Positions 1-5,376 of a stretch of DNA of 8,050 nucleotides are shown in pieces; position 1 is the stretch's first letter; the number at the start of each line of letters is the position of its first letter. This stretch comes from a virus (lineage: Duplodnaviria; Heunggongvirae; Uroviricota; Caudoviricetes). The translations under genes were made by a program, and so were the position numbers. The notes beneath the pieces are model-generated. The model was not told the DNA's origin and ran no database searches. It saw only the letters and a list, made by a program, of their open reading frames with translations. Location of the stretch: IMG/VR virus record IMGVR_UViG_2695420855_000011, positions 1 to 8,050 of that record. One strand, written 5' to 3'.

Positions 1-239
1 TCAGTTTTTAGCCAGAGCGGTGACGGCATTGTCGAGTTTTTGCCATCCGCAATAGGTGATTGCTCTGAATGCTGTTGCGCCATTCTGGAAAAGGCTAACC
101 GCTCCTGATTCGGTTTTTATTACCGCCTCATCAGTTGGAGTTATAACCGTGGCTTCAACGTTAATAATCAGCTTTTGAGCGTCTATCAGCATCATGCGAT
201 CCGCCTGTTCGCTCACAATTACCGGTATTCTCAAAAGCT
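1..239 (-). pseudogene. 3'-terminal fragment (about 79 codons) of an HK97-fold major-capsid-like gene; exact copy of 4450..4688
   Basis: Bases 1-239 are identical to 4450-4688 and diverge at 240 (a) versus 4689 (c). The minus-strand frame gives the same C-terminal 77 aa as the 308-aa ORF at 4450..5376. No 5' part or start codon; an in-frame TAG (plus 238-240) sits immediately upstream at the point of divergence. Confidence 0.6.
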
Positions 240-349
240 AAGAAAAAAGCCACCCGCATAATTTCAGATATTGACGAAAGCGCATCAGCCGCATCATCAG
301 GAACGCCGGAAAATTCTTGTTTCAGGGAATTAAAACGATCATCACGCAT
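161..349 (-). CDS. Small hypothetical protein; only the first about 36 codons (240..349) are unique sequence, the 3' end reads out of frame through the repeat copy
   Basis: ATG at 349 is preceded by a G-rich SD (minus strand GGGGAGGGGGGG then tt then ATG). The ORF crosses the 239/240 repeat boundary, so its C-terminus is probably non-native. It overlaps the end of the upstream ORF. Confidence 0.3.
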   Translation of the reverse strand: MRDDRFNSLKQEFSGVPDDAADALSSISEIMRVAFFLAFENTGNCERTGGSHDADRRSKADY

Positions 350-567
350 AACCCCCCCTCCCCATTTTCACAATCAGCAACAAGAATATTTTTAGCGTCA
401 TTCAGCGACCGCGTGGCGGTGTATCGGATACATTCCAGGGCGAACAATGTGTATTCTTCCCGTTCTTCCTTTTGTGCAAGCCCTGCTGTGCATTCAATAT
501 CAATAAGCGCATGCATCAGCGTAGTGAGCGCGGCGGCTGCTGCGTCCGGTGTGGTTTTATTGCACAT
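322..567 (-). CDS. Hypothetical 81-aa protein, translationally coupled to the Icd-like gene
   Basis: ATG at 567 is preceded by CAGGAGG with a 6-nt spacer. The start overlaps the stop of the Icd-like ORF (minus strand ...CCATGTGCAATAA). No family recognised. Confidence 0.5.
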   Translation of the reverse strand: MCNKTTPDAAAAALTTLMHALIDIECTAGLAQKEEREEYTLFALECIRYTATRSLNDAKNILVADCENGEGGLCVMIVLIP

Positions 568-1117
568 GGCACACCTCCTGACGAATACGGGCGGCGAATA
601 CAGCAACACAACCGGACGGGCAACGGCTACGTGCTTCGCGTTCCGTCCAGGCGGTTACGTGGATGATTTGATGTTCTGACGCGCCAAAGATGATAAAGCG
701 CCAGAGAAAGGCGGTTTGAGAATGTACAAGGGTAGGGATAGTAGCCATGTTGGCAGCCTCCTCAGTGTGGTTAAGATAACCGCCACCGGAAACGCCAATT
801 TCGCTGGTGGCGGACTGTACAGGGTTGGCGTAACCGGACACTGAAGAAACCGGCGCGGATTGCTCCGCCCCCGTACAGCCCACCATTGATAAGGTGTGAC
901 TATGCGGCACAAAAAAACACGCGGGGCGCGTGTTATGCGCTTCAGTTTTGCCCAGGACGCCAATCCCGGCACCCGTTTTATGAGGTGCGCGGGAATCATA
1001 GCTATTTTCGACACTGGCGATCAACTGGTTTTTTTCTCCGATATTCAGGGCCAGAAAACGCCACACAAAGGCCGTTTGTGTGTGTACAAGGTGTGGTATA
1101 TGATTTACGGCAACCAT
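557..1117 (-). CDS. Tandem (two-domain) Icd-like small protein, 186 aa as one frame; the second domain (557..748) has its own ATG and strong SD
   Basis: ATG at 1117 is preceded by AGGAG with a 5-nt spacer. Two paralogous segments share the pattern hydrophobic-H-x-Q-T-A-F-x-W-R-F (MVAVNHIPHLVHTQTAFVWRF... and MATIPTLVHSQTAFLWRF...). This resembles proteins annotated as host cell division inhibitor Icd-like in enterobacterial prophages, recalled from memory and not verified. There is no stop between the two copies. Confidence 0.45.
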   Translation of the reverse strand: MVAVNHIPHLVHTQTAFVWRFLALNIGEKNQLIASVENSYDSRAPHKTGAGIGVLGKTEAHNTRPACFFVPHSHTLSMVGCTGAEQSAPVSSVSGYANPVQSATSEIGVSGGGYLNHTEEAANMATIPTLVHSQTAFLWRFIIFGASEHQIIHVTAWTEREARSRCPSGCVAVFAARIRQEVCHVQ

Positions 1118-1146
1118 AACGGCTCCTAGTTTACGTTGTTGGTTAG

Positions 1147-1180
1147 ACGCCCCGTATGTGTTCCCAGCACTGCGGGGCGT
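1147..1180. promoter_or_regulatory. Hairpin (8-bp GC-rich stem ACGCCCCG / CGGGGCGT, 18-nt loop) in the leader region of the Icd-like operon
   Basis: Inverted repeat at 1147-1154 and 1173-1180, followed on the plus strand by a T-rich tract 1181-1190. It lies about 30 nt upstream of the Icd-like start on the minus strand. Confidence 0.3.
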
Positions 1181-1205
1181 TGATTTTTGTGTAATGGCAA
1201 GTACA

Positions 1206-1247
1206 ATGGTAATTACCATGTAGGTATAGTAATGAAGGGTAATTACC
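1206..1247. promoter_or_regulatory. Two palindromic operator-like sites sharing the core GGTAATTACC, between the divergent arc-like and icd-like genes
   Basis: A perfect 14-bp palindrome ATGGTAATTACCAT at 1206-1219 and a 10-bp palindrome GGTAATTACC at 1238-1247, the latter directly abutting the ATG of the Arc-like gene. A TATAGT -10-like hexamer lies between them at 1225-1230. Confidence 0.45.
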
Positions 1248-1421
1248 ATGTCAACACCATTAGAAAAACGTTCGCCTCCATACCAAATGCGATTACCGGA
1301 AGACTTCAGAGCGCAGCTAGAAGAAGCAGCTAAGGCCGATGGCGACACATCTTTAGCCACTTGGATTAAACGCGTTCTCCGCAAAGAATTACAGCAACGC
1401 GGCATAGAACCCAAAGGATAA
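1248..1421 (+). CDS. Arc/MetJ-type ribbon-helix-helix DNA-binding protein, 57 aa
   Basis: Own translation: MSTPLEKRSPPYQMRLPEDFRAQLEEAAKADGDTSLATWIKRVLRKELQQRGIEPKG. It shows the RHH pattern (beta-strand YQMRLP, helix A, G-D-T-S turn, helix B). It is below the length cutoff of the supplied ORF track and sits right after the palindromic operators. Confidence 0.75.
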   Translation: MSTPLEKRSPPYQMRLPEDFRAQLEEAAKADGDTSLATWIKRVLRKELQQRGIEPKG

Positions 1422-1478
1422 AAACTATCAGCGCCGTGGTGTGAGGTATTACGGCGCATTGCTATGCAGGACAACACA

Positions 1479-1652
1479 ATGACCGATAAAGAATTGACCA
1501 AAACATTATCACCGGCACGGAAAAGACGGCGCAGAAAGATAGAGCATGAATCAGAAAGATTCGCGCCATGTGCTTTTGCCCTTGAGCAATTCCTTAAAGA
1601 GTACAGGGAAAAGCGCTCATTGCAGGTATGGCAACGAACTGAACCAGACTGA
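1479..1652 (+). CDS. Small basic hypothetical protein, 57 aa, downstream of the Arc-like gene
   Basis: ATG at 1479 with AGGA 7 nt upstream. Sequence MTDKELTKTLSPARKRRRRKIEHESERF... It is followed by an intrinsic terminator. No family recognised; the alternative start at 1464 has a poorly spaced SD. Confidence 0.35.
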   Translation: MTDKELTKTLSPARKRRRRKIEHESERFAPCAFALEQFLKEYREKRSLQVWQRTEPD

Positions 1653-1747
1653 TTGCATTGCCCACCAGCCTGATAGCGGCTATCATCCCCGTGCTTATGT
1701 TTGGGATCACATACACATAAGGCGCAGCGGGTTAATTGTTCAGAAAG

Positions 1748-1774
1748 GCGGCTCCATATCGGGGCCGCTTTTTT
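1748..1774 (+). terminator. Rho-independent terminator for the arc-like operon, possibly bidirectional with alpA
   Basis: Stem GCGGCTCC / GGGGCCGC (8 bp with one G-U pair), 5-nt loop, then TTTTTT at 1769-1774. It sits between the convergent ORF ends at 1652 (+) and 1801 (-). Confidence 0.55.
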
Positions 1775-1800
1775 CGTGTTTGTCATATCTGTGATACCCG

Positions 1801-2007
1801 TTAAGCAGCCGTTCCGCGTGCTTCCTCTTCGCGTTCTTTCTGCCAGGACAACACATCATCCTCATACCATCCGCGACGGCGTAAACCAACGCGAAAACCC
1901 TGCGGAAATTCTCCGGCGTTGATCATGCTTTGCAGCGTGCTGTCTGCCTTGATGTGGATAATTTTTTTTACTTCCTGGCGAAAGATAATTTTTCTGATTG
2001 CTTCCAT
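1801..2007 (-). CDS. alpA: AlpA-family phage transcriptional regulator / excisionase-like protein, 68 aa
   Basis: Sequence ...IIFRQEVKKIIHIKADSTLQSMINAGEFPQGFRVGLRRRGWYEDDVLSWQ... fits the AlpA/Vis signature (S-T-L/I ... AGEFP ... G ... GW ... W). Located downstream of the integrase, as in CP4-57-like islands. Confidence 0.8.
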   Translation of the reverse strand: MEAIRKIIFRQEVKKIIHIKADSTLQSMINAGEFPQGFRVGLRRRGWYEDDVLSWQKEREEEARGTAA

Positions 2008-2503: not shown

Positions 2504-3745
2504 CTACACGGCTCGGATACCCCTTTTACCACTGGCGAGGGTTACGCCCGTCGCCGCAGCCTCGACAAATTCGCCCCACCAGCGCATCAGCACGATGCGT
2601 TTTTCTATGTAGTTGCTCCGGTTGTATGCCCGTCTAACTTCGTTGGTGTCGACGTGGGCAAGTGCCGCCTCTATTACGTCCGGCTCGAATCCTTCCTCGT
2701 TCGCTGCTGTGCTGAATATGGCGCGTAATCCATGAGACACCAGCACGCCAGCGAATCCCATACGCCGCAATGCTGCGTTAGCTGTCTGGCTGTTCATCGG
2801 CTGCTGTGGGTCTTTCAGACTTGGGAAAACGTAATTGCGGTGGTGGCTGATTGGTTTCATGGCCTCCAGCACCGCCATAGCCTGACCGGAAAGCGGGATA
2901 ACGTGATCCCTGCGCATCTTCATGCGTCCGGCAGGTATCGTCCATTGCTTCGCGTCCAGGTTGATTTCATCCCACCGCGTTGATGACGCTTCGGCGGGAC
3001 GGGTTACGGTCAGTAACTGCCATTCAATCAGTAATCTGGTCTGCCGTTCTGTTGCCGATACTGATAAAGCCTGCATAAGCTCGGGCAGCTGTTCGGGGCG
3101 GATTGTTGGCATATGTTTTTTTACAGGTGAGGGAAACGCCTTACGCACATTCATAGCCGGATTGGCATCAATCAGCCCACTGTTGGCGGCGTAATCCATT
3201 ACCTCATTAACGCGCTGTAAAACCCGCTTGAGTGTTTCCAGGTTGCCGCGCTCCTTGATGGGGGTAAGCACTTCAACGAACCTTCGGGCGGTGAGGGTAT
3301 CTATTGGCGTGTTGCCGATGAACGGGAATACATATTTATCCAGCGAACGCCAGATGTCTTTAATCGTGTTGGGGGCCAGATTCTGGCTGATTTTCACCTG
3401 GTACCATGCCGCCGCCACATTTTCGAACGTGTTCCCTTGTCTTCGGGCCTCTGTCTCTCTTTTTTGCCTCTCGTGGTCCTGCGGGTCAGTTCCGGCACTG
3501 ATTAACGTCCTGTACTCGCTACGGCGTTTTCTGGCATCAGCCAGGGAAACATCTTCAAGCGATCCAAAACTCAGCAATATTCTTTTTTTGTCCGATGGTC
3601 GGTAGTAGGAAAATCTCCAGAGTTTTGATCCAGACGGTTTGACCAGGAGAAAAAGCCCTCCGCCGTCCTGCAGGGTGTACTCCTTTTGCGCTGGTCTGGC
3701 TGCTTTGATCTGCACTGTGGTTAATGGGTGTGTTTTTCTCGCCAT
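2504..3745 (-). CDS. int: P4-like tyrosine integrase (site-specific recombinase), 413 aa
   Basis: N-terminus MARKTHPLTTVQIKAARPAQKEYTLQDGGGLFLLVKPSGSKLWRFSYY... is typical of P4 / CP4-57 IntA-type arm-binding domains. The C-terminal part has H-x-x-R (SHGLRAIF) and the tyrosine motif (RRAYNRSNY). The ORF track starts at an upstream GTG (3763); the ATG at 3745 matching the family N-terminus is preferred. Confidence 0.9.
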   Translation of the reverse strand: MARKTHPLTTVQIKAARPAQKEYTLQDGGGLFLLVKPSGSKLWRFSYYRPSDKKRILLSFGSLEDVSLADARKRRSEYRTLISAGTDPQDHERQKRETEARRQGNTFENVAAAWYQVKISQNLAPNTIKDIWRSLDKYVFPFIGNTPIDTLTARRFVEVLTPIKERGNLETLKRVLQRVNEVMDYAANSGLIDANPAMNVRKAFPSPVKKHMPTIRPEQLPELMQALSVSATERQTRLLIEWQLLTVTRPAEASSTRWDEINLDAKQWTIPAGRMKMRRDHVIPLSGQAMAVLEAMKPISHHRNYVFPSLKDPQQPMNSQTANAALRRMGFAGVLVSHGLRAIFSTAANEEGFEPDVIEAALAHVDTNEVRRAYNRSNYIEKRIVLMRWWGEFVEAAATGVTLASGKRGIRAV

Positions 3746-4449: not shown

Positions 4450-5376
4450 TCAGTTTTTAGCCAGAGCGGTGACGGCATTGTCGAGTTTTTGCCATCCGCA
4501 ATAGGTGATTGCTCTGAATGCTGTTGCGCCATTCTGGAAAAGGCTAACCGCTCCTGATTCGGTTTTTATTACCGCCTCATCAGTTGGAGTTATAACCGTG
4601 GCTTCAACGTTAATAATCAGCTTTTGAGCGTCTATCAGCATCATGCGATCCGCCTGTTCGCTCACAATTACCGGTATTCTCAAAAGCTCTATCTGCCAGA
4701 ACTCAGCATTAGTAAGCTGTAAGGCGTTTTCTACGGGCAAGATTAGCGACGACGTGGCAAGCGTGTTACCGTTCGCTATGTGCTTTTTGAAAAGCTCTAT
4801 GAAGTTTTCGGCCTCATCAGCACCATTAAGCACGCCCTCAGGGGATACGCCCGCCAACTCCTGGTCACTGGAAAGAAATTTTTTATCTATTTCTTTCACC
4901 GATTCCGATGTGATCAAGTCTCTGATCGCTGAATTGGTACCAGGGGTGCTAAATTTGATTAGCTCGTTATTCAGCATCACAATAGCGCCGAGTTTGTACA
5001 GTTTTAGCGAGCTTTCGCTTACTTCTCCCCCTTTTACTGGGATTTCTTCGGCCTCTTTAAGCCATTTACTCCCCTTGCCTGATATTGATTGCAATTTTGC
5101 GCCAAAGGGAAGATTAAGCGCACTACTGATTAACTTGCCAGGTACAGACTGCGAAAAAATATACCCGCCCAGCTCTCTTGCTATCGGCTCAGCCACCAGC
5201 GACGGAAGGTTATCCGTGTTCATTCCTGCTACTACGGATTTTTCAAGGAATAACGAGACAGCCGGATCATTTCTTTTCGTCATCTCTATAGCGTCAGCAT
5301 GGCTAAATTTACACGATGCCAGCACGCTGGCGGCGCGAACTGCTGACACGCCTTTCATGTTTTTACAGATCATCAT
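4450..5376 (-). CDS. HK97-fold major capsid protein-like, 308 aa
   Basis: C-terminal half (...GVLNGADEAENF...LILPVENALQL...LRIPVIVSEQADRMMLIDAQKLIINVEATVIT...SLFQNGATAFRAITYCGW) follows the conserved pattern of HK97-type capsid proteins, by recall not by search. Strong SD (AGGAGGAGGAAG) before ATGATG; translationally coupled to the upstream small ORF. Confidence 0.55.
   Translation of the reverse strand: MMICKNMKGVSAVRAASVLASCKFSHADAIEMTKRNDPAVSLFLEKSVVAGMNTDNLPSLVAEPIARELGGYIFSQSVPGKLISSALNLPFGAKLQSISGKGSKWLKEAEEIPVKGGEVSESSLKLYKLGAIVMLNNELIKFSTPGTNSAIRDLITSESVKEIDKKFLSSDQELAGVSPEGVLNGADEAENFIELFKKHIANGNTLATSSLILPVENALQLTNAEFWQIELLRIPVIVSEQADRMMLIDAQKLIINVEATVITPTDEAVIKTESGAVSLFQNGATAFRAITYCGWQKLDNAVTALAKN

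What the first reader, a model, noticed from the sequence alone, without database searches (positions are those of the whole stretch)
557..1117. Two Icd-like domains fused in one frame with a strong internal ribosome-binding site
Both paralogous segments share the Q-T-A-F-x-W-R-F motif but no stop codon separates them. The second copy keeps its own ATG (748) with a GAGGAGG SD embedded in the linker coding sequence. This may be a genuine two-domain protein, two products made from one mRNA by internal initiation, or a recent loss of the first copy's stop codon.
Basis: seen in the sequence. Interest (0 to 1): 0.5.

Follow-up and report, generated by a model that had tools for sequence, protein, structure and literature searches.

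The report
Antisense-RNA immunity switch inside a nested ORF
The "two fused Icd domains" are a short cell-division-inhibitor-like gene nested in a longer reading frame that runs through two regulatory RNA genes, the arrangement known from satellite phage P4 (eta/kil with CI RNA), so the finding is largely explained.

Summary
ATG 1117 to TAA 557 is an open 186-codon frame, with an internal GAGGAGG (763-757) and ATG (748), and two related QTAFxWRF segments.

The interpretation needs correcting.
- The "linker" is not linker. It holds a conserved promoter (1024-995), an isrK/seqA-like RNA with its terminator (988-912), and a C4/CI-like antisense RNA (890-803).
- The "strong internal RBS" is the b2 target of that RNA. 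C4 loops, isrK and the SD region co-vary three ways across about 20 alleles.
- Only the second copy is an Icd-like domain; P4 Kil matches the same model. The first copy is about 28 codons left from an Icd gene. Sister loci are identical except for an exact 360-nt (120-codon) block.
- P4's eta ORF has the same Ash + Icd-like architecture.

Likely mechanism: upstream transcripts translate the long frame straight through the RNA module, escaping immunity, while isrK-promoter transcripts make the RNAs and C4-gated Icd.

One thing I did not expect: the frame stays stop-free for 409 codons, back to alpA, antisense to the repressor genes. This recurs in 35 of 53 sequence clusters.

The parts
557..1117 (-). 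186-codon long ORF (eta-like): Icd N-terminal remnant, then 'Ash' (a translated regulatory region), then the Icd-like domain
   Evidence: Open frame. Pfam Phage_ASH matches aa 40-133 and NCBIfam Icd-like matches aa 137-180. The P4 214-aa ORF has the same architecture.
557..748 (-). 63-aa Icd-like / P4 Kil-like short ORF nested in the long frame
   Evidence: NCBIfam phage_ICD_like scores 57 bits; P4 Kil scores 76 bits on the same model. Variability by codon position is 0.23/0.24/0.43, a coding signature.
1038..1117 (-). First copy: the 5' remnant (about 28 codons) of an Icd-like gene, with its own SD (1127-1123) and ATG
   Evidence: L050 and L058 are identical up to about 1038, then skip 360 nt and resume at 677. 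The remnant alone matches no family model.
995..1024 (-). Promoter-like site PisrK (TTGATC, 18-nt spacer, TATGAT), placing the transcription start at about 988, the 5' end of isrK
   Evidence: Consensus scan. Among 50 distinct sequences, the -35 is TTGATC in 35, the -10 is TATGAT in 41, and the spacer is 18 nt in 43.
912..988 (-). isrK / P4 seqA-like RNA carrying a1 (966-953) and b1 (947-936), with an intrinsic terminator hairpin (934-916) followed by a T run
   Evidence: Rfam RF01394 scores 66 bits against a gathering score of 50. Terminator scan. Covariation with C4.
803..890 (-). C4 / P4 CI-like antisense RNA, with the b' loop at 849-838 and the a' region at 832-823
   Evidence: Rfam RF01695 scores 77.6 bits against a gathering score of 45. 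The loops co-vary with their targets.
752..799 (-). C4 target sites a2 (799-788) and b2 (768-757). b2 contains the GAGGAGG Shine-Dalgarno (763-757) of the Icd-like ORF.
   Evidence: Predicted C4:TIR duplex of -39 kcal/mol in the window. Cognate pairs average -30.0 and non-cognate pairs -22.0 kcal/mol over 23 distinct pairs.
1226..1254 (-). Upstream promoter-like site (TTGACA, 17-nt spacer, TACTAT) whose transcript would include ATG 1117
   Evidence: Matches 10 of 12 consensus positions. It overlaps the palindromic operators.
1206..1249 (.). Two ATGGTAATTACCAT palindromes (1206-1219 and 1236-1249), probable operators of the divergent repressor
   Evidence: Inverted and direct repeats.
1248..1421 (+). 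Divergent Arc/RHH-like (YlcI/YnfO-like) small repressor gene, lying antisense to the long frame
   Evidence: PHROG 228 Arc-like repressor, E=1.5e-6. Weak NCBIfam YlcI_YnfO_N match. Homologues are annotated in L002 and L003.
1464..1652 (+). Second small plus-strand ORF (phrog_21027), also antisense to the long frame
   Evidence: PHROG E=1.6e-15.
557..1786 (-). 409-codon stop-free frame running from 14 nt after the alpA stop to the icd stop
   Evidence: 0 stops, against 14 and 29 in the other two frames. None of 20,000 shuffles reaches 409 codons; the maximum was 292.
1801..2007 (-). alpA homologue directly upstream of the long frame, the position ORF88/vis holds upstream of eta in P4
   Evidence: Weak Pfam Phage_AlpA match. 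Annotated as an HTH regulator in L001. P4 layout.
322..567 (-). Downstream gene whose ATG (567-565, with SD AGGAGG at 579-574) overlaps the end of icd, suggesting translational coupling
   Evidence: Sequence. Matches phrog_5146.

Best explanation
This is the RNA-immunity and early-leader region of a P4-like satellite (PICI), built like P4 eta/kil.

Three transcript classes are expected.
(a) The conserved internal promoter (about 1024-995) starts at isrK. Most transcripts stop at the isrK terminator, giving the isrK/seqA-like RNA. Read-through is processed to the C4/CI-like RNA. C4 pairs through its a' and b' regions with a2/b2, covering the GAGGAGG SD of the 63-aa Icd/Kil-like ORF. That keeps icd and the coupled downstream genes off. 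isrK carries decoy copies a1/b1.
(b) and (c) Transcripts from the repressor-controlled promoter at 1254-1226, or from further upstream (alpA), carry ATG 1117 or the longer open frame. Ribosomes then elongate through isrK, C4 and the masked SD. Expression becomes immunity-insensitive and the RNA is protected from premature termination, as shown for P4 eta.

Shown here: the RNA genes, the target covariation, the homology to P4 Kil and Eta, the promoter conservation and the frame conservation. Inferred: promoter use, translation of the long frame and its antitermination effect.

The first 'Icd copy' is a leftover 5' end of an upstream icd gene, fused in frame.
For: - RNA genes: Rfam finds C4 at 77.6 bits and isrK at 66 bits inside the ORF.
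- P4 layout: isrK 8692-8615, C4/CI 8507-8420 and the 65-aa Kil all lie inside a 214-aa ORF that overlaps the end of ORF88.
- Shared domains: P4 Kil and the window ORF hit the same Icd-like model. P4 Eta is Phage_ASH plus Icd-like, the same as here. BLASTP window ORF against P4 ORF gives 32% over 111 aa, E=1e-7.
- Covariation: b'/b1/b2 and a'/a1/a2 co-vary three ways across about 9 b and 7 a specificities. Cognate duplexes are 8-15 kcal/mol stronger than non-cognate ones.
- Promoter and terminator are conserved, and the terminator shows compensatory changes.
- No codon periodicity in the promoter/isrK/C4 part, clear periodicity in icd.
- Spacing from isrK start to ATG is 240 nt (15 variants) or 243 nt (12 variants) where the frame is open.
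- Literature: PMC10111431 (section 20) describes P4 eta, Kil, CI and seqA in exactly these terms and reports C4 and isrK hits in PICI Bro-zone genes. PMC4825925 shows that isrK read-through transcripts and translation of an ORF across the C4-like region control the downstream gene in Gifsy-1.
Against: - No expression data exist for this element. Promoters and the terminator are consensus-level predictions.
- In the window, two of the three frames are stop-free across isrK-C4. In a P1-like phage the same frame is open through C4 simply because the RNA sequence is conserved. Openness across the RNA part alone is therefore weak evidence for translation.
- Some relatives break the frame: the E. 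albertii type with 242-nt spacing (L007, L133, L136-138) and L022.
- Transcripts from the upstream promoter that end at the isrK terminator would lack a stop codon.
- I could not read the Forti 1999 paper. Its content is taken from PMC10111431 and from memory.
Confidence: 0.72

Rival explanations
1. The long ORF is never translated as such. Only the 63-aa Icd-like protein and the RNAs are functional. The open frame, and the Pfam 'Ash' family, would be by-products of conserved RNA and promoter sequence that happens to lack stops, perpetuated by gene callers.
For: The promoter/isrK/C4 part shows no codon periodicity. A second frame is also stop-free across isrK-C4 in the window. The P1-like phage keeps the same frame open through C4 without an upstream start. 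PGAP annotates the same sequence inconsistently, as an ash pseudogene plus separate icd in some genomes and a fused protein in others.
Against: Openness extends far beyond the conserved RNAs, to 409 codons, reached by none of 20,000 shuffles. It recurs in mosaic, non-homologous upstream contexts: 35 of 53 clusters have at least 250 codons, against none on the opposite strand. Indels between isrK and the ATG are multiples of 3 in most variants. The block distinguishing the window from single-icd loci is exactly 120 codons. In P4, translation of eta is reported to be required for antitermination (PMC10111431, citing Forti 1999).
Confidence: 0.2
2. It is a genuine two-domain protein in which both Icd-like segments fold and act together, for example as a tandem division inhibitor.
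For: The two segments are significantly similar. Some homologues carry a longer first copy, of the form WRFIALSTAQPRVITIEATSEQEAR.
Against: The first segment is only about 28 codons of the domain and fails the family model. The intervening 90 residues are a translated promoter, terminator and RNA genes with no coding signature. Many homologous long ORFs, and P4 Eta, lack the first motif entirely.
Confidence: 0.05
3. It is a recent stop-codon loss or a sequencing or assembly error that merged two adjacent icd genes.
For: Loci with two complete, separate Icd genes flanking a1b1-C4 do exist: L119, L121, L051 and L105. The window itself shows assembly-like rearrangements elsewhere.
Against: The same sequence occurs in many independent complete genomes. 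The difference from other configurations is a large in-frame block or deletion, not a point change. Fused frames occur across alleles only 60-90% identical.
Confidence: 0.03

Closest known systems
Satellite phage P4 immunity region: eta/kil nested genes with CI RNA, seqA and seqC (Forti et al. 1999 J Bacteriol 181:5225, as summarised in PMC10111431)
   Same: The order is the same: alpA homologue, long ORF, isrK/seqA-like element, C4/CI RNA, target over the SD, and a nested short Icd-like ORF of 65 versus 63 aa. Both long ORFs are Phage_ASH plus Icd-like. In both, the long frame opens at or near the 3' end of the alpA homologue.
   Different: Here the long frame carries an extra 5' remnant of a second icd gene with its own SD and ATG. 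A divergent protein-repressor module (RHH gene plus operators) sits between alpA and the RNA module, so the long frame runs antisense through it. Protein identity to P4 is only about 32%. Nothing has been tested experimentally in this element.
Phage P1 immI operon: c4 RNA, icd, ant (own knowledge; Rfam C4 RF01695 and c4-a1b1 RF03163)
   Same: A C4 RNA with a'/b' regions, upstream a1/b1 and downstream a2/b2 sites, b2 over the icd ribosome-binding site, and an Icd-like ORF coupled to the next gene.
   Different: In the P1-like phage the icd frame is closed inside isrK/a1b1, 65 codons upstream, so there is no long nested ORF. The downstream gene is an antirepressor, not satellite replication genes.
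Gifsy-1 IsrK - orf45 - anrP locus of Salmonella (PMC4825925)
   Same: An isrK promoter and a leaky isrK terminator. The read-through transcript is processed to a C4-like RNA (STnc1160). A small ORF translated across that region is coupled to the downstream gene. Its nucleotide sequence is conserved but its peptide is not.
   Different: There the small ORF lies over the C4-like RNA and no Icd-like ORF is described. IsrK acts in trans as an activator. No long upstream frame is described.
Bro zone of Gram-negative PICIs and helper-embedded PICIs (PMC10111431)
   Same: The window is a PICI-type element laid out as int, alpA, regulatory zone, replication genes, terS and capsid. That paper already reports C4 and isrK hits inside Phage_ASH-containing genes of PICIs.
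   Different: The passages I read do not mention the icd-remnant duplication, or a frame kept open antisense through the repressor genes.

Membership tests
P4-type eta/kil nested genes with CI-RNA immunity | A CI/C4-family antisense RNA encoded in the leader, upstream of the short ORF | tested here: met
   Rfam RF01695 scores 77.6 bits at 890-803. P4 CI scores 74.9 bits with the same model.
P4-type eta/kil nested genes with CI-RNA immunity | An upstream seqA/isrK-like element and a downstream seqC/a2b2 site, both complementary to the RNA's loops, with the downstream site over the short ORF's ribosome-binding site | tested here: met
   isrK scores 66 bits. Three-way covariation across about 20 allele combinations. 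b2 at 768-757 contains the SD at 763-757.
P4-type eta/kil nested genes with CI-RNA immunity | The short ORF is a Kil homologue | tested here: met
   Both match NCBIfam phage_ICD_like: 57 bits for the window ORF and 76 bits for P4 Kil. BLASTP E=1e-7.
P4-type eta/kil nested genes with CI-RNA immunity | A longer ORF in the same frame that starts upstream of an internal constitutive promoter | tested here: met
   The frame is open from 1117, and from 1786. The internal promoter-like site at 1024-995 is conserved in 35-43 of 50 sequences. Promoter activity was not measured.
P4-type eta/kil nested genes with CI-RNA immunity | Translation of the long ORF prevents premature (Rho-dependent) termination, and CI RNA causes termination of transcripts from the internal promoter | not testable with these tools
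   This needs nonsense-mutation, bicyclomycin and reporter experiments.
Icd-like cell division inhibitor (NCBIfam NF033153) | Score above the curated cutoff on the 48-position domain model | tested here: met
   Second copy: 57-60 bits against a cutoff of 25. First copy alone: no hit.
Icd-like cell division inhibitor (NCBIfam NF033153) | Inhibits cell division or kills the cell when expressed | not testable with these tools
   Known only for P1 Icd and P4 Kil.
Pfam Phage_ASH (PF10554) as a protein domain | Sequence match above the gathering score | tested here: met
   63.3 bits against 26, over aa 40-133.
Pfam Phage_ASH (PF10554) as a protein domain | Evolves as a protein, with excess variation at third codon positions | tested here: not met
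   Entropy by codon position is 0.59/0.59/0.63 in isrK and 0.54/0.46/0.48 in C4, against 0.23/0.24/0.43 in icd. The matched residues map onto the promoter -10, isrK, the terminator, C4 and a2/b2.

The most novel reading that the evidence does not exclude
The Ash-Icd ORF may be only the tail of a much longer frame that is deliberately kept free of stops: 409 codons here and 250 to more than 430 in most relatives. It starts in or just after alpA and runs antisense through the divergent repressor genes, their operators, a promoter, a terminator and two RNA genes. On this reading, selection acts on translatability rather than on the peptide. The frame would be a 'translated spacer' that keeps ribosomes coupled to RNA polymerase, so that induced read-through transcripts cross an oppositely oriented repressor module and the RNA-immunity module without Rho termination. 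In the window, its codon third positions coincide with those of the plus-strand genes. That phase lets silent changes in one frame be silent in the other.
Probability: 0.35. Interest if true: 0.6.

Novelty: new member of a known kind. Interest (0 to 1): 0.3.

Why it matters
Three practical consequences follow.

- Annotation. "Ash family protein" and the fused "Ash-like/Icd-like protein" calls, common in E. coli genomes, mostly label a translated promoter, terminator and two RNA genes. PGAP splits or fuses them inconsistently, so they should be read as an RNA immunity module plus a small Icd/Kil gene.
- Immunity types. The three-way covariation gives a ready-made catalogue of immunity specificities among PICIs and P4-like satellites: about 9 b types and 7 a types in a small sample.
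- A testable mechanism. If the long stop-free frame is really maintained for translation-coupled antitermination across an antisense repressor module, it extends the P4 eta principle. It would be a clean example of selection on an ORF's openness rather than on its product.

Tried and rejected
The single-protein scan of genome contigs returned only 3 loci. The viral and metagenome scans gave 160 loci, and I used those instead.
- nhmmer with a single query misses diverged C4 and isrK, including P4's. I used Rfam models for key loci.
- Forti 1999 (PMC94026) is not held. A literature search for Phage_ASH and Icd-like found nothing relevant.
- Pfam, NCBIfam and PHROGs find nothing in the 223 residues upstream of ATG 1117. 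I therefore do not read that part as a conventional protein.
- Codon periodicity cannot decide which strand codes at 1248-1652, because the two frames share third positions.
- Synonymous resampling of the two plus-strand genes gives only P of about 0.05-0.09 for no antisense stops. That part of the argument is modest on its own.
- Rejected: sequencing error, point loss of a stop, and a true tandem-domain protein. Reasons are given under the rival explanations.

Full report
**1. Observation**

The finding lies on the minus strand. ATG 1117-1115, preceded by AGGAG at 1127-1123, opens a frame that runs to TAA 559-557 and encodes 186 aa. QTAFVWRF is encoded at 1078-1055 and QTAFLWRF at 718-695. 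An in-frame ATG at 748-746 is preceded by GAGGAGG at 763-757.

The two segments are related: 48% identity over 42 aa, E=1e-10 for the single comparison. The sequence is not an error. Complete E. coli genomes carry it at 99.6-99.7% identity, and 138 records cover at least 80% of the 751-nt query. Near-identical called proteins represent hundreds of member sequences.

**2. What lies between the copies**

Rfam at gathering thresholds finds two RNA genes inside the ORF:
- isrK (RF01394, 66 bits) at 988-912
- C4 antisense RNA (RF01695, 77.6 bits) at 890-803

isrK ends in a GC-rich hairpin followed by a T run at 934-909. A sigma-70-like promoter (TTGATC, 18-nt spacer, TATGAT; 1024-995) places the transcription start at the isrK 5' end.

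Among 50 distinct related sequences, the -35 is TTGATC in 35, the -10 is TATGAT in 41 and the spacer is 18 nt in 43. The terminator stem shows compensatory changes.

Pfam Phage_ASH matches residues 40-133, which is exactly the promoter -10, isrK, terminator, C4 and target stretch. NCBIfam phage_ICD_like matches only residues 137-180. Variability by codon position is flat in isrK (0.59/0.59/0.63) and in C4 (0.54/0.46/0.48). It shows the coding pattern in icd (0.23/0.24/0.43). The "Ash" part is therefore regulatory DNA read as protein.

**3. The internal RBS is an antisense-RNA target**

The C4 apical loop b' (849-838, UUUCUUCAGUGU) is complementary to b2 (768-757, ACACUGAGGAGG), which contains the SD. 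It is also complementary to b1 in isrK (947-936). The C4 region a' (832-823) is complementary to a2 (799-788) and to a1 in the second isrK loop (966-953).

Across the related loci these three sets co-vary together, through about 9 b specificities and about 7 a specificities. Predicted duplex energies are:

| Pairing | Cognate (kcal/mol) | Non-cognate (kcal/mol) |
|---|---|---|
| C4 : icd translation-initiation region | -30.0 | -22.0 |
| C4 : isrK | -37.4 | -22.2 |

These values come from 23 distinct pairs. The read-through RNA 988-735 folds with z = -4.9, with isrK paired to the C4 loops.

**4. Comparison with P4**

In P4 (NC_001609) the same Rfam models hit 8692-8615 (isrK, equivalent to seqA) and 8507-8420 (C4, equivalent to CI). 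Both lie inside a 214-codon ORF (8812-8168) that begins in the 3' end of ORF88, the alpA homologue. Its last 65 codons, MATTLTPSHPEF..., are Kil.
- P4 Kil scores 76 bits on the Icd-like model.
- The P4 long ORF is Phage_ASH (residues 37-161) plus Icd-like (161-208), the same architecture as here.
- BLASTP between the two long ORFs gives 32% over 111 aa, E=1e-7.

PMC10111431 (section 20, citing Forti et al. 1999) states the following. [quoted passage not shown] Kil is a truncated Eta, translated on read-through. Full-length Eta is translated only from the upstream late promoter and is coupled to the alpA homologue. Eta translation prevents termination. The same paper notes C4 and isrK hits in PICI genes.

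PMC4825925 shows the related isrK / read-through / upstream-ORF logic in Gifsy-1. I could not read Forti 1999 itself.

**5. Origin of the first copy**

Loci L050 and L058 are identical to the window from 1300 down to about 1038: operators, SD, ATG 1117 and the first 27-28 codons. They then lack exactly 360 nt (window 1037-678, or 120 codons) and resume in the second copy. The result is one intact Icd-like gene that scores 65 bits.

Other configurations also exist:
- L119, L121, L051 and L105 have a complete Icd gene with its own stop, then c4-a1b1, C4 and a second Icd-like ORF.
- Several window-like loci carry two RNA modules in tandem: isrK-C4-icd-a1b1-C4-icd.
- Some homologues keep a longer first copy, of the form ...WRFIALSTAQPRVITIEATSEQEAR.

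So icd genes and C4 modules are strung in series in this family. The window's first copy is a 5' remnant fused in frame. It is not a point loss of a stop.

**6. Is the frame kept open?**

I took loci chosen only by similarity to the 63-aa part. Of 37 distinct C4-bearing upstream variants, 32 keep the frame open back through isrK. The isrK-to-ATG spacing is 240 nt in 15 variants and 243 nt in 12 variants. The E. albertii-type allele has a 242-nt spacing and a stop.

Two caveats apply. In the window a second frame is also stop-free across isrK-C4. In a P1-like phage the same frame is open through C4 for 65 codons. The RNA part alone therefore does not prove selection on the frame.

**7. The unexpected part**

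The window's frame is open for 409 codons (1786-557). It starts 14 nt after the alpA stop. It runs antisense through an Arc/RHH-like gene (1248-1421), a second small ORF (1464-1652) and the operator and promoter region.

The other two minus-strand frames hold 14 and 29 stops. None of 20,000 shuffles reaches 409 codons; the maximum was 292.

I grouped the 1,300 nt upstream of icd into 53 clusters at 90% identity. The longest stop-free run on the icd strand has a median of 292 codons, and 35 of 53 clusters reach at least 250. The opposite strand has a median of 103 codons and none reaches 250. Shuffled sequence has a median of 83. Where the icd frame closes, another frame on the same strand is usually stop-free instead.

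RefSeq loci L002 and L003 show the open frame crossing annotated opposite-strand genes. Translations of these stretches look non-protein-like and match no family. Synonymous resampling of the two plus-strand genes gives only P of about 0.05-0.09, so the evidence is cumulative rather than decisive.

My reading, which is an inference, is that this extends the P4 eta principle. The frame is kept translatable so that induced transcripts are not terminated.

**8. Verdict**

- The linker is an RNA immunity module.
- The internal RBS is the regulated target of the antisense RNA.
- The first copy is a remnant.

The arrangement is a new member of the known P4 eta/kil and C4-icd kind, and its interest as a finding is modest. 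The long antisense stop-free frame is the only element that may be new.

Noticed in passing
window 1-239 = 4450-4688; 3322-3745 = 7627-8050: The window is rearranged relative to a reference PICI at tRNA-Pro (L001, E. coli RM8385). Window 234-3986 matches L001 5013->1265, 5400-7626 matches L001 8749->6523, and 7627-8050 matches L001 1929->1506. It reads as two adjacent copies with complementary deletions. One copy has the 5' end of int fused to the 3' part of repA. The other runs from int to icd and is fused to the 3' end of the capsid gene. The 100%-identical repeats could mean a real tandem of deletion derivatives or an assembly artefact.
   Followed up: partly
window 557-1786 (-): A 409-codon stop-free frame runs from just after alpA, antisense through the RHH repressor gene and a second small ORF. 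It recurs in most related loci, including ones with non-homologous upstream modules.
   Followed up: partly
window 1206-1219 and 1236-1249: Two perfect ATGGTAATTACCAT palindromes sit 30 bp apart. They overlap face-to-face promoter-like sites at 1254-1226 (-) and 1180-1207 (+), and are probably operators of the divergent Arc-like repressor.
   Followed up: partly
L019, L023, L029, L030, L041, L135 (for example L023 1261-1337, 1359-1446, 1720-1769, 1836-1924): Related satellites carry two C4 immunity modules in tandem (isrK-C4-icd, then c4-a1b1-C4-icd). The second Icd-like ORF is a divergent subtype, of the form ...FVWRFMQCHH...LPHAHL.
   Followed up: partly
window 719-1000 (-) and Pfam PF10554: The Pfam Phage_ASH profile maps onto a promoter -10, isrK, its terminator, C4 and the C4 targets. 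The family appears to be largely a translation of conserved non-coding RNA genes.
   Followed up: yes
window 1062-1082 (-): The DNA encoding the first QTAFVWRF motif forms a terminator-like hairpin, CACACAAACGGCCTTTGTGTG, followed by GCGTTTTCTG. The second copy has no equivalent hairpin. Its significance is unknown.
   Followed up: no
L001 3465-4694 (RefSeq NZ_CP028112.1) compared with L002 1439-1978: PGAP annotates the same open frame as three pieces in one genome (two 'incomplete' pseudogenes plus a 63-aa Icd-like protein) and as a single 179-aa Icd-like protein in another.
   Followed up: yes
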